Source: Candidatus Hermodarchaeota archaeon
GTDB lineage: Archaea; Asgardarchaeota; Hermodarchaeia; Hermodarchaeales; Hermodarchaeaceae
Reading direction: 5' to 3'
NCBI GenBank assembly: GCA_016840065.1
Contig: JAEOTB010000093.1
Span: forward strand, 1 to 34,036
Length of the DNA: 34,036 nucleotides
A program made the translations under genes and the position numbers. Below are positions 19,168 to 26,063 of this stretch, piece by piece. The notes under the pieces are model-generated. The model did no database searches. It saw only the letters and a program-made list of their open reading frames with translations, and had not been told where the DNA came from. The stretch's first letter is position 1. Every line of letters begins with the position of its first letter.

Positions 19168-19488
19168 CTGAGATCTAAACATCGATATCTCGTGGTTCGG
19201 ATAATCACTGAAGACAACTCTCCACCAGAAGGGAAGTTTCGAGAGGCAATCTGGCAGCAACTCCAACAAATCTACGGTGAATTAGGTGTCAGTCGTATTG
19301 GTTTTTGGGTTATGAGTTATCATCCCGAACATCATTTCTCTATAATTCGTTGTCAACACAACCAGGTTCGTGAATTGCGAGCAGCCTTAGCAACTATCAA
19401 ACAAATCGGTCATACTCCTCTTCTCCTGCAGGTGGTAGGGATTAGCGGCACTATTCGGAAAGCGAAAACTCTACTGCCAAACAAGTGA
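19168..19488 (+). CDS. rnp2: Ribonuclease P protein Pop5/Rpp14; probable CUG start at 19168
   Basis: In-frame LRSKHRYLVV upstream of the ORF-track start, IYGELG, IIRC, GISGTIRKAK. Confidence 0.9.
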   Translation: MRSKHRYLVVRIITEDNSPPEGKFREAIWQQLQQIYGELGVSRIGFWVMSYHPEHHFSIIRCQHNQVRELRAALATIKQIGHTPLLLQVVGISGTIRKAKTLLPNK

Positions 19489-19624
19489 AATGACCTTAAC
19501 CTTGATCATTGGCAAACACCGATTCTATGTTCAGCAACGAAGTACCACAATGAAAACATCTGCTACTATCATTGCGAGAACCATGCCAAAAGAGATATAG
19601 TCAATGATTTGACCTATATTATCT

Positions 19625-19699
19625 GGGGGCTCAGTGAAGCCAGCCGCTCCAGACTGAGCCAATCGGCTATGACGAGCTCGCGACGAGCAGAGAGCCCTC
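19625..19699 (+). ncRNA. Putative box C/D-type sRNA with two K-turns
   Basis: Terminal stem GGGGGCUC/GAGCCCUC; C box GUGAAGC (19634-40); 13-nt guide; D' CUGA (19654-57); GCC-AAUC-GGC hairpin; C' AUGACGA (19669-75); 12-nt guide; D CAGA (19688-91); followed by T5. Confidence 0.7.
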
Positions 19700-19700
19700 G

Positions 19701-19707
19701 CTTTTTC
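19701..19707 (+). terminator. Oligo-T tract immediately after the putative sRNA
   Basis: CTTTTTC directly after the terminal stem; oligo-T tracts are typical archaeal intrinsic terminators. Confidence 0.4.
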
Positions 19708-19714
19708 GATATTG

Positions 19715-20149
19715 TTAGCCACGAATACGTATTGTCACTTCATGAAGCTGCTCTTTTATTAGCTGATATGCTCTCATACTATGTCTTCCATCTCGTGAAA
19801 CCCCATCGATAATCCATGTGCAAGGATTATACGTCATAAACTCTATATCATGTCCCGAGGGGTGAGGTGGTGCTGGATGAGAATGAAATATCGCAACTAG
19901 GTCTAGATTATTCAACGAGGCGGTCGTCAAGATACGATATTGGTGTTCGGGATCAATGGCAAATGATGAAGAAGATTGGGCTATGTTCTCCATTTCTACG
20001 ACTTGGATAACAATGGCTGTGTTATCATCTTCTCTAAATGTACCCAACAATAAAGCGCAACCTTCGAAAGGACCAGCACGGCGCCGAACGGCGTAGAGCT
20101 TTTGTCGTTGGGCCCTTGTGAGTTGGATTGTATGTACTTTCTGTGTCAT
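19715..20149 (-). CDS. JAMM/MPN+ (Mov34/JAB) metallo-isopeptidase
   Basis: EGCALLLG...FHSHPAPPHPSGHD matches the E-xn-HSH-x7-S-x2-D JAMM motif. Confidence 0.92.
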   Translation of the reverse strand: MTQKVHTIQLTRAQRQKLYAVRRRAGPFEGCALLLGTFREDDNTAIVIQVVEMENIAQSSSSFAIDPEHQYRILTTASLNNLDLVAIFHSHPAPPHPSGHDIEFMTYNPCTWIIDGVSRDGRHSMRAYQLIKEQLHEVTIRIRG

Positions 20150-20223
20150 CGAGTGCAGCCCAGCAAAAGGCTTAAATGCTTCTCACCTTTTGAGTTTTCG
20201 CATCCCCGCTTGAGCAGTGATCA

Positions 20224-20616
20224 ATGAGGCAAAAATGTATGTCTCAAAAAACTCGTGAACGGAAACATATGCGGCGCACGATGATAATTAGCAGCGCTGC
20301 CATCGCATTTATCGCGATATTAGCTGGACTAATTCGATTACGACTCGGTCCCATAGCTGGGATAGTTGATTTCCTAGGACCAGTAATAACTGGTGTAATT
20401 AGTATTGTGTTACTGACACTTCTGTTTATTGGTTTGGTCTTGCTCATTGGCAACTTACGGAATTTGTATGGAGAATCAGCTGGCTGGTTTGACGTAATCA
20501 TCCTTTGGGTGTTAGTCACAATATTAGCGGCAATACTATTCGGCGCTCCAGTTGCACTTCTAACTGGTCTTCTATGTATTGGCTTCGTATACTATCTTCA
20601 CCTTGCTCAGGACTAG
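20224..20616 (+). CDS. Hypothetical integral membrane protein (about 4 TM segments; start may be 20239/20269)
   Basis: Basic N-terminus followed by about four hydrophobic stretches; AAAAGGCTTAAATG TATA-like element at 20165-20178. Confidence 0.75.
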   Translation: MRQKCMSQKTRERKHMRRTMIISSAAIAFIAILAGLIRLRLGPIAGIVDFLGPVITGVISIVLLTLLFIGLVLLIGNLRNLYGESAGWFDVIILWVLVTILAAILFGAPVALLTGLLCIGFVYYLHLAQD

Positions 20617-25391: not shown

Positions 25392-25702
25392 ACAAGAGCC
25401 CCAATCACTTGACGGAAAGAGGAGCACTCCCTTTCTGGCTAAAAATAAGCATCTCAAGCCACACGGAGGAAACAAATAAGGCGTTACTAGCAATGCTTCA
25501 GCCAGAGTTTGATGCGATAGATTCAAAAAGAGTTAGACTGCAGGTAACGCCTACCCGAAACCAGCTAGAATTCCACCTTGCCGCCAAAGATGTGAAGGCG
25601 TTACGTGCGGCCTCAACATCTCTACTACGCCTGTTTATGGTGGCGGAGGGTGTATTACACTTAACAATGATACAAACTAGTGGTGAGGAAAGCCATGAGT
25701 GA
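25385..25702 (+). CDS. pcc1: KEOPS subunit Pcc1
   Basis: LQPE, AKDVKALRAASTSLLRL; position before prefoldin beta. Confidence 0.88.
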   Translation: MVDKSPNHLTERGALPFWLKISISSHTEETNKALLAMLQPEFDAIDSKRVRLQVTPTRNQLEFHLAAKDVKALRAASTSLLRLFMVAEGVLHLTMIQTSGEESHE

Positions 25703-26063
25703 AGATATTCCGCCTCAAGTCCGTCAACAAGTTGAACGTATCCAACAAGTGCAAGAGCGTCTTCAATTCGTGCATGCTGCTTTGCACCAAATCAAACAAC
25801 AACTCGCCGAAATAAACATCGCACAGAAACAGCTTATAGCGCTCGCTGAAGACGCAGTCGTATACCAGATGGCAGGCTCCCTCCTTTTCAAGACTACCAA
25901 GGAGAAGGCTACAAAAACCTTAGAAGAACAGGCTGAAGCGCTTACGGTTCGTCAAAAATCACTTGAAAAACAGGAAAAAACACTCAGTAAACAATACGAG
26001 ACGCTTCAAGAAACTCTCCGTGGAATGCTAGGCGTTAGTGGAGGCCCCGCTCCTGCAGGGTAG
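25695..26063 (+). CDS. pfdB: Prefoldin beta subunit
   Basis: IPPQVRQ, coiled coils, VYQMAGSLL hairpin, LEKQE. Confidence 0.93.
   Translation: MSEDIPPQVRQQVERIQQVQERLQFVHAALHQIKQQLAEINIAQKQLIALAEDAVVYQMAGSLLFKTTKEKATKTLEEQAEALTVRQKSLEKQEKTLSKQYETLQETLRGMLGVSGGPAPAG

What the first reader, a model, noticed from the sequence alone, without database searches (positions are those of the whole stretch)
19625..19706. Unannotated double-K-turn box C/D-type sRNA hidden between pop5 and a JAMM gene
Seen: a GC-rich 75-nt island with exact bipartite box C/D geometry. First K-turn: 8-bp terminal stem, 3-nt bulge AGU, then tandem GA/GA followed by A.A, G-C, C-G. Second K-turn: D' CUGA, a 3-bp hairpin, bulge UAU, then GA-CG pairing back to CUGA. 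The spacers are 13 and 12 nt and a T5 tract follows. Known: archaeal C/D sRNAs bind L7Ae-Nop5-fibrillarin and methylate the base paired to the 5th nt upstream of D/D'. Inference: the D' guide predicts target UCUG[G]AGCGGCUG, whose GAGCG resembles the 3' strand of a tRNA D-arm. The D guide (GCUCGCGACGAG) folds on itself with the next base (GCUCG-CGA-CGAGC), and the C and D boxes deviate from consensus in a way that keeps the K-turn. It may therefore be a single-guide or non-methylating (chaperone, scaffold or regulatory) K-turn RNA. It lies directly downstream of two RNase P protein genes, and L7Ae is also an RNase P subunit.
Basis: partly seen in the sequence, partly recalled or inferred. Interest (0 to 1): 0.75.

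Follow-up and report, generated by a model that had tools for sequence, protein, structure and literature searches.

The report
Ribosome-methylating guide RNA after pop5
The flagged stretch is a real but unannotated small guide RNA of the well-known archaeal box C/D type that most likely directs sugar methylation of two nucleotides at the catalytic centre of the large ribosomal subunit; it is an ordinary, very widely conserved member of its class with slightly unusual boxes.

Summary
The element is sharply conserved in all 18 genomes of the window's Asgard family. Orthologues, mostly with textbook boxes, occur in 58 of 151 Asgard and 49 of 151 Thermoproteota genomes. The genome encodes Nop5, fibrillarin and L7Ae.

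The guides are not orphan. The D' guide pairs with the 23S P-loop and the N+5 rule lands on G2251 (E. coli numbering), the universally methylated G. The D guide pairs with the 5' strand of helix 89, with N+5 = U2460. Both pairings are supported by compensatory guide/target changes across lineages. rRNA had to be taken from relatives.

The tRNA D-arm target, the self-folding "dead" guide and the non-methylating reading are not supported.

The closest described relative is Sulfolobus acidocaldarius Sac-sR110, detected by RNA-seq and listed without targets. The D' guide also resembles yeast snR67 / plant U31. The gene sits just after pop5 in Asgard and in Desulfurococcaceae.

This scan already found and followed up the same family on other genomes, with the same conclusion. 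Verdict: new member of a known kind.

The parts
19594..19600 (+). TATA-like promoter element (GATATAG), preceded by an A-rich BRE-like run at 19587-19593
   Evidence: Centred about 28 nt upstream of the first base of the terminal stem. It aligns with a conserved block (AAAACAGATAAAAC) in the sister genus, while the spacer between it and the RNA is not conserved. Promoter activity is inferred, not shown.
19625..19699 (+). Box C/D sRNA gene (about 75 nt)
   Evidence: Sharply bounded conservation; model R1 match at 19623-19698, 60.8 bits; no conserved ORF on either strand.
19625..19632 (+). 5' arm of the terminal stem (C-stem of the C/D K-turn)
   Evidence: Pairs with 19692-19699. Stems differ in sequence but stay complementary across lineages.
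19634..19640 (+). Variant C box GUGAAGC (consensus RUGAUGA)
   Evidence: Thaumarchaeal orthologues have AUGAAG or AUGAGG, and other Asgard orthologues AUGAUG.
19643..19652 (+). D' guide: pairs with 23S P-loop C2248-C2257 (E. coli numbering). The N+5 base C19649 faces G2251.
   Evidence: 10 bp with one G.U, -22.3 kcal/mol. It is the best or second-best LSU site in 12 of 12 genomes. There is a compensatory G-to-A guide change with C2257-to-U in family f4.
19654..19657 (+). D' box CUGA
   Evidence: An NNGA box starts exactly 2 nt after the ..CCA guide core in 54 of 64 distinct orthologue cores.
19658..19667 (+). Internal hairpin (GCC / AAUC / GGC) closing the C'/D' K-turn
   Evidence: Orthologues have hairpins of 2-7 bp with unrelated sequences at the same place.
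19669..19675 (+). C' box AUGACGA
   Evidence: AUGAAGA or AUGAUGA in orthologues.
19676..19686 (+). D guide: pairs with the 5' strand of 23S helix 89, U2457-C2467. The N+5 base A19683 faces U2460.
   Evidence: 11 bp with one G.U, -22.5 kcal/mol, against -16.5 for the alternative site in helix 93. It is the best site in LSU+SSU, and 14 of 1000 shuffled guides do as well. Compensatory changes are seen in G091, G027, G021 and G099.
19688..19691 (+). Variant D box CAGA (consensus CUGA)
   Evidence: The second position is free in the family (CUGA, CCGA, CAGA, UGGA), while the GA is invariant.
19692..19699 (+). 3' arm of the terminal stem
19702..19706 (+). T5 tract, likely archaeal transcription terminator
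   Evidence: T-rich runs follow the 3' stem in all family members. Function is inferred.

Best explanation
Window 19625-19699 (+) encodes a box C/D guide sRNA. It is probably transcribed from its own TATA-like promoter about 28 nt upstream and terminated at the T5 tract. By analogy with characterised archaeal C/D RNPs, the RNA binds L7Ae at two K-turns: C/D with the 8-bp terminal stem, and C'/D' closed by a 3-bp hairpin. It then recruits the Nop5-fibrillarin pairs that this genome encodes.

The D' guide base-pairs with the P-loop (helix 80) of 23S rRNA and places G2251 (E. coli numbering) five nucleotides from box D' for 2'-O-methylation. The D guide base-pairs with the 5' strand of helix 89 and places U2460 in the same way. 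Holding two domain V segments near the peptidyl-transferase centre at once may also help local folding.

Shown: the anatomy, its conservation, the complementarity, guide/target covariation, the fixed ruler distance, and the presence of the protein genes. Inferred: transcription, RNP assembly and the methylations themselves.
For: - Anatomy is exact.
- Conserved in 18 of 18 family genomes with unconserved flanks.
- One orthologue per genome in 58 of 151 Asgard and 49 of 151 Thermoproteota genomes. Most have canonical boxes; the G091 orthologue, for example, carries AUGAUGG, CUGA, AUGAUGA and CUGA boxes.
- Nop5, fibrillarin and two L7Ae-family genes are in the same genome.
- The D' guide's best or second-best LSU site is the P-loop in 12 of 12 genomes that have both the sRNA and an LSU.
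- Two guide variants (..GCUCCAG and ..GUCCCAG) both fit the invariant CUGGGGC with a single G.U at different places.
- Family f4 has guide A opposite U2257, where others have G opposite C2257.
- An NNGA D' box starts 2 nt after the guide core in 54 of 64 distinct cores, so N+5 is always the C facing G2251.
- For the D guide, helix 89 is the best LSU site in 10 of 12 genomes. Compensatory changes are: G091 guide C-to-U with G2462-to-A; G027 guide G-to-A with C2458-to-U; G021 and G099 guide G-to-A with C2463-to-U.
- 51 of 64 cores keep the 12-nt geometry that puts U2460 at N+5.
- Precedent: Dennis et al. 2015 (PMC4644070) predict guide-directed methylation of the G2251 equivalent in three archaea. 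Their Additional file 1 lists U2734 as a target, which I mapped to E. coli U2460.
- The S. acidocaldarius orthologue Sac-sR110 was detected by RNA-seq.
Against: - No rRNA is assembled in this 84%-complete MAG, so targets were read from the sister genus and other Asgard genomes.
- Complementarity of the D' guide alone is not statistically striking: 127 of 1000 shuffled guides find an equally long match somewhere in rRNA.
- A G.U sits next to the target pair (N+6) and might lower methylation efficiency.
- The C box matches the consensus at only 4 of 7 positions and the D box at 3 of 4.
- In a minority of lineages the D spacer is 13-15 nt (Baldrarchaeum, G027, G056), which would move the methylated base in helix 89.
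- A second, weaker site for the D guide exists in helix 93.
Confidence: 0.8

Rival explanations
1. It is the same C/D sRNA, but the D guide acts on the helix 93 region (CCGUCGUGAGA, E. coli 2591-2600; N+5 = U2593), instead of or in addition to helix 89.
For: This site is the second-best LSU match in most genomes and the best in G024. The target sequence is nearly universal. A U2867 target, which I mapped to E. coli U2593, is listed for other archaeal sRNAs in the supplement of PMC4644070.
Against: - For the window's guide the duplex is weaker: -16.5 against -22.5 kcal/mol, and 9 bp starting only at position 3.
- Guide changes in G091 and G027 improve the helix 89 pairing but degrade this one.
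Confidence: 0.12
2. It is a K-turn RNP that pairs with the P-loop and helix 89 only as an assembly chaperone and no longer methylates, because its C and D boxes are degenerate and a G.U lies beside the target pair.
For: Variant boxes GUGAAGC and CAGA. The D spacer length drifts in some lineages. Dennis et al. discuss chaperone roles for double guides.
Against: - The G.A dinucleotides of all four boxes are kept.
- The D' ruler distance is invariant across three phyla, which only matters if the fifth base is modified.
- G2251 is a universally methylated position.
- Fibrillarin and Nop5 are present.
Confidence: 0.06
3. It is not an RNA gene. It is either a GC-rich terminator hairpin shared by the convergent pop5 and JAB genes, or part of a small ORF (63 aa antisense, or 67 aa sense).
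For: A GC-rich stem is followed by T5, and the ORFs exist mechanically.
Against: - The unpaired guide segments are the best-conserved parts.
- The same element occurs in other contexts without convergent genes.
- There is no Pfam hit.
- The stop-free stretch across the element varies from 27 to 109 codons and is only 33-43 codons antisense in the closest relative.
Confidence: 0.02

Closest known systems
Sulfolobus acidocaldarius Sac-sR110 (Dennis et al. 2015, BMC Genomics 16:632, PMC4644070, Additional file 1)
   Same: It has the same double-guide layout. Its D' guide core (..GCCGCUCCAG) is identical to the window's, its D guide (..CGCGACGAG) is near-identical, and both spacers are 12 nt. It was detected by RNA-seq, so the family is expressed in at least one cultured archaeon.
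   Different: - Sac-sR110 has canonical C and D boxes (GAUGAUGA, CUGA), no extended terminal stem, and a degenerate D' box (CUGC).
- It was listed as 'NP NP', meaning no predicted target. The P-loop duplex contains a G.U and the helix 89 duplex has only 8 Watson-Crick pairs in that species.
- The window's RNA has variant boxes, an 8-bp stem and an 11-bp helix 89 duplex.
Thermoproteus tenax sR117 and sR107; Nanoarchaeum sR04; Methanopyrus sR45 (same supplement)
   Same: Tte-sR117 carries the same D guide directly upstream of CUGA. Tte-sR107, Neq-sR04 and Mka-sR45 carry P-loop guides of the ..GUCCCAG or ..GCCCCAG type.
   Different: In T. tenax the two guides lie on separate sRNAs. Their partner guides differ from the window's.
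Eukaryotic snR67 (yeast) / U31 family (Rfam RF01177, RF01285; clan CL00053)
   Same: The 5' guide upstream of box D' has nearly the same sequence (GUCGCCCCA..). From my own knowledge, snR67 guides 25S Gm2619, the G2251 equivalent. An Asgard orthologue (G024) aligns to the snR67 model over its whole length at 25 bits, E = 0.002.
   Different: - That score is far below the gathering threshold of 55 bits, and the window's own copy gives no hit at E up to 10.
- The second guide differs: from my own knowledge snR67 targets U2724, not helix 89.
- The shared guide could reflect the shared target rather than common descent.

Membership tests
Archaeal box C/D guide sRNA | C box (RUGAUGA) near the 5' end and D box (CUGA) near the 3' end, forming a K-turn: tandem sheared G.A, a 3-nt bulge, and a flanking terminal stem | tested here: met
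   GUGAAGC and CAGA keep both G.A pairs. The AGU bulge and an 8-bp stem are present. Consensus identity is only 4 of 7 and 3 of 4, but orthologues grade into canonical boxes, and terminal stems covary.
Archaeal box C/D guide sRNA | Internal D' and C' boxes forming a second K-turn or K-loop | tested here: met
   CUGA, a 3-bp hairpin, a UAU bulge and AUGACGA are present. The hairpin varies in sequence and length but is kept in orthologues.
Archaeal box C/D guide sRNA | Guide spacers of about 12 nt between C-D' and C'-D | tested here: met
   13 and 12 nt.
Archaeal box C/D guide sRNA | Guides complementary (about 9-12 bp) to rRNA or tRNA, with a sensible target at the fifth base from D or D' | tested here: met
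   P-loop: 10 bp with N+5 = G2251. Helix 89: 11 bp with N+5 = U2460. This used 23S rRNA of relatives, because the MAG has none.
Archaeal box C/D guide sRNA | Genome encodes L7Ae, Nop5 and fibrillarin | tested here: met
   Nop5 and fibrillarin are adjacent on contig C61, and two L7Ae-family genes are present.
Archaeal box C/D guide sRNA | Expressed as a discrete small RNA that directs 2'-O-methylation | not testable with these tools
The only evidence is indirect: the Sulfolobus orthologue was seen by RNA-seq.
Any Rfam C/D family | Score at or above the family's gathering threshold | tested here: not met
   No gathering-level hit in the window. The best sub-threshold hit is sR38 at 13 bits, and in a different register.
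snR67 / U31 snoRNA family | Covariance-model membership, and both guides shared | tested here: not met
   Only an orthologue from another Asgard family reaches 25 bits, against a threshold of 55. Only the P-loop guide is shared.
H/ACA sRNA (the other L7Ae-binding guide class) | Pseudouridylation pocket hairpin followed by an ACA trinucleotide | tested here: not met
   There is no ACA after the 3' stem (GCUUUUU follows), and the layout is bipartite C/D.

The most novel reading that the evidence does not exclude
This sRNA family is an ancient, fixed non-coding resident of the archaeal exosome-proteasome superoperon, sitting at the pop5 | psmA junction from Desulfurococcales and Sulfolobales to several Asgard families. 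It would also be the direct archaeal ancestor of the eukaryotic U31 / snR67 snoRNA that methylates the same P-loop G. That would make it a guide RNA traceable from TACK and Asgard archaea into eukaryotes by target, guide sequence and guide position. The synteny part is shown here. Descent into eukaryotes is not.
Probability: 0.25. Interest if true: 0.65.

Novelty: new member of a known kind. Interest (0 to 1): 0.4.

Why it matters
- It adds a missing RNA gene to the annotation of an Asgard genome that appears to have few C/D sRNAs.
- It assigns plausible targets, the P-loop G2251 and helix 89 U2460, to a family whose Sulfolobus member was published as an orphan.
- It shows that the universally conserved P-loop Gm, made by stand-alone enzymes in bacteria, is probably RNA-guided across Asgard, Thaumarchaeota and Crenarchaeota, by one orthologous gene held at the same place in the exosome-proteasome superoperon.
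- That gives a concrete candidate for testing how far snoRNA genes, and not only the protein machinery, go back before eukaryotes.

Tried and rejected
- **Rfam:** nothing at gathering thresholds on the whole window. At permissive thresholds there was only a 13-bit sR38 alignment at 19597-19659. It uses an upstream AUGAUUU as its C box, and that part is not conserved in the sister genus, so I rejected it.
- **Own rRNA:** no 16S or 23S found in the MAG.
- **Genome-wide antisense search:** looking for perfect matches of 10 nt or more to both guides gave only chance-level hits in coding DNA.
- **tRNA targets:** the best score was 7.0, so rejected. Only 18 tRNAs were detectable, many with introns.
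- **Fold energy:** z-scores are not significant on either strand.
- **Sac-sR110 lookup:** an exact-pattern search for the published sequence found nothing. A degenerate pattern then recovered crenarchaeal orthologues, plus a few bacterial chance hits.
- **Stem statistic:** my first anchor regex was mis-anchored and its numbers are void. It was corrected.
- **Supplement markers:** the per-position markers in the Dennis et al. alignment cannot be placed, because whitespace is collapsed in the stored text.
- **Self-hairpin of the D guide:** present in the window (5 bp), but 3-4 bp or absent in orthologues, so it looks like a by-product of the near-palindromic helix 89 target.

Full report
**1. 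Observation**

- An 8-bp terminal stem (19625-19632 with 19692-19699, one G.U).
- A 3-nt bulge AGU.
- Tandem G.A/A.G (19636-19637 with 19690-19691), followed by A.A and G-C.
- A 13-nt spacer.
- D' CUGA (19654-19657).
- A 3-bp hairpin with a 4-nt loop (19658-19667).
- Bulge UAU.
- C' AUGACGA (19669-19675).
- A 12-nt spacer.
- D box CAGA (19688-19691).
- T5 (19702-19706).

It is a GC island of 0.625, against roughly 0.35-0.48 in the flanks. It lies in the 226-nt gap between convergent genes: pop5 (19192-19488, +) and a Prok-JAB gene (19715-20149, -). The neighbourhood is the archaeal exosome-proteasome superoperon: L15e, PF01877, Rpp30, Pop5..., PsmA, SBDS.

**2. It is a conserved gene, not chance**

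A DNA search of 60 relatives found the block at 83-90% identity in all 18 genomes of the same family. In the alignment, conservation starts at the first G of the stem and stops at its last base, while both flanks are unalignable. The exception is a short upstream block, AAAACAGATAAAAC in the sister genus and AAAGAGATATAGTC in the window's genus. It sits where an archaeal TATA box would be, centred about 28 nt upstream.

A pattern scan of one genome per species recovered 63 loci. They include Hermod-, Prometh-, Odin- and Thorarchaeota-labelled MAGs, Baldrarchaeum, and many Nitrososphaeria.

A sequence model (R1) built from 28 orthologues (A1) finds exactly one copy per genome in 58 of 151 Asgard genomes and in 49 of 151 Thermoproteota genomes.

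Most orthologues have textbook boxes. The G091 orthologue, for example, carries AUGAUGG, CUGA, AUGAUGA and CUGA. So the window's GUGAAGC and CAGA are lineage variants of an ordinary C/D sRNA.

Terminal stems have at least nine unrelated sequences that always pair. With box-fixed anchors the mean is 3.7 contiguous pairs, against 1.1 after swapping 3' arms between lineages. The internal hairpin likewise changes sequence and length (2-7 bp) but persists.

No ORF is conserved across the element, and neither mechanical ORF has a Pfam match.

The genome encodes adjacent Nop5 and fibrillarin genes and two L7Ae-family proteins.

**3. Targets**

The MAG is 84% complete and has no assembled rRNA. I therefore used 23S and 16S loci from the sister genus and other Asgard genomes, plus one Nitrososphaerales genome.

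*D' guide.* It pairs with the P-loop, CUGGGGCGGC (E. coli C2248-C2257). The duplex is 10 bp with one G.U, at -22.3 kcal/mol. Counting from box D', the fifth guide base (C19649) faces G2251. By established knowledge, this G is 2'-O-methylated in all three domains: RlmB in E. coli, and snR67-guided Gm2619 in yeast.

Complementarity alone is modest, since 127 of 1000 shuffled guides do as well somewhere in rRNA. Four further observations carry the weight:
- The P-loop is the best or second-best LSU site for the cognate guide in 12 of 12 genomes.
- Two guide variants..GCUCCAG and ..GUCCCAG, differ in a way that only makes sense against GGGG. Each gives one G.U, at N+6 or at N+7.
- In family f4 the LSU has U2257 and the guide has A, where others have C2257 and G.
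- The D' box (NNGA) starts exactly two bases after the ..CCA core in 54 of 64 distinct cores from three phyla. The ruler to G2251 is therefore fixed.

*D guide.* It pairs with the 5' strand of helix 89, UCGUCGCGGGC (U2457-C2467). The duplex is 11 bp with one G.U, at -22.5 kcal/mol. It is the best site in LSU plus SSU, and 14 of 1000 shuffles reach it. N+5 is U2460.

Helix 89 is the top LSU site in 10 of 12 genomes. Compensatory changes support it:
- G091 has guide U where its helix 89 has A2462.
- G027 has guide A where its helix 89 has U2458.
- G021 and G099 have guide A with U2463, and A with U2467.

A second site, CCGUCGUGAGA in helix 93 (N+5 = U2593), is weaker for the window's guide (-16.5 kcal/mol). 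The G091 and G027 changes degrade it, so I keep it as a rival or secondary site.

In 51 of 64 cores the D spacer geometry puts U2460 at N+5. In 13 cores the core sits 1-4 nt further from box D. Among the orthologues I read individually, this applies to Baldrarchaeum, G027 and G056. In those lineages the helix 89 methylation site is less certain.

The best tRNA score is 7.0, against 9.5 for the P-loop. A genome-wide antisense search gave only chance hits.

**4. What is known**

Dennis et al. 2015 (PMC4644070) predicted guide-directed methylation of the G2251 equivalent in three of seven archaea. Their Additional file 1 lists U2734 paired with G2768 as targets. From their alignment row I mapped U2734 to E. 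coli U2460 (offset 274).

The same file gives the sequence of S. acidocaldarius Sac-sR110. It has the same D' guide core as the window, a near-identical D guide, 12-nt spacers and an RNA-seq read count. Its targets are nevertheless recorded as 'NP NP'. The G.U in the P-loop duplex, and only 8 Watson-Crick pairs with that species' helix 89, explain why their criterion of at least 9 Watson-Crick pairs missed them.

T. tenax sR117 has the same D guide. Tte-sR107, Neq-sR04 and Mka-sR45 carry P-loop guides.

Rfam has no model that reaches threshold. An Asgard orthologue from another family aligns end-to-end with yeast snR67 (25 bits, E = 0.002) and with plant U31b, through the shared 5' guide upstream of D'. 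That may reflect common descent or simply the common target.

**5. Genomic position**

In all family members the order is pop5, sRNA, JAB (opposite strand), a 130-aa ORF, psmA.

The sRNA also follows pop5 in Asgard families f14 and f7. In Baldrarchaeum it precedes psmA, and in family f12 it lies between the PF01877 gene and psmA.

A degenerate pattern scan recovered orthologues in Desulfurococcaceae, Sulfolobales, Thermofilum and Thermoprotei MAGs. In 11 of 15 of these loci the sRNA lies next to pop5 and/or psmA. Where both genes fall inside the locus it sits between them, often only about 30-40 nt after pop5. Two further loci (L180, L192) have only L15e or PF01877 nearby.

The sRNA is therefore the ancestral occupant of the pop5 | psmA junction, and the JAB + ORF pair is the later insertion.

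In several Nitrososphaeria the sRNA lies within 0.4-1.6 kb of a PF01877 gene.

I found no paper in the searchable library that links a C/D sRNA to the superoperon.

**6. Earlier notes of this scan**

After reaching the above, I found that this scan has flagged the same family on several other genomes. Two follow-ups (e1-5449498, e1-5425121) came to the same reading: Sac-sR110 as the closest relative, methylation at the catalytic centre of the large subunit, and a family shared by Asgard and other archaea. e1-5449498 also places it between pop5 and the proteasome gene, and the first-reader title of e1-5425121 names Gm2251. These are not independent evidence, but they show that the finding is recurrent rather than special to this window.

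**7. Verdict**

- Observation: confirmed.
- Interpretation: partly supported. The class is right; the target, the 'dead guide' idea and the non-methylating idea are not supported.
- It is a new member of a known kind.
- What is particular here is the variant C and D boxes with a long terminal stem, and the separation from psmA by an inserted JAB cassette.
- Limits: there is no rRNA from this genome, no expression data, and no direct evidence of methylation.

Noticed in passing
window 19715-20616: The Prok-JAB gene (-) and the divergent 130-aa ORF with no Pfam match (+) lie together between the sRNA and psmA in every genome of the family. JAB also follows the sRNA in Asgard family f14. Crenarchaeal loci have the sRNA followed directly by psmA, so this pair looks like the inserted part.
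   Followed up: partly
G000 contig C10, about 25700-25780 (-), outside the window: A crude box scan of the whole genome found one further C/D-like candidate: AAUGAGGA ... CGGA ... AUGAUGG ... CUGA, with a 5-bp GCAGC/GCUGC stem. Very few canonical candidates turned up overall, which suggests a small C/D sRNA repertoire.
   Followed up: no
L098 (G021), L151 (G099), L152 (G056), L097 (G023): In these Asgard 23S rRNA loci the P-loop and helix 89 are 400-540 nt apart, instead of about 195 nt. This indicates introns or large insertions within domain V.
   Followed up: no
G000, several contigs (for example C10:99325-99484): Many tRNA genes in this genome carry long or multiple introns. ARAGORN finds only 18 tRNAs, some with doubtful anticodon calls.
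   Followed up: no
L044, L048, L054, L062, L086 (Nitrososphaeria): The thaumarchaeal orthologues lie 0.4-1.6 kb from a PF01877 'RNA_binding' gene, the same gene family that precedes Rpp30 in the window. This may be a remnant of the superoperon linkage.
   Followed up: partly
window 19597-19659: A weak Rfam sR38 alignment (13 bits) uses AAUGAUUUGA upstream of the real sRNA as its C box. That part is not conserved in relatives, so it is probably chance.
   Followed up: yes
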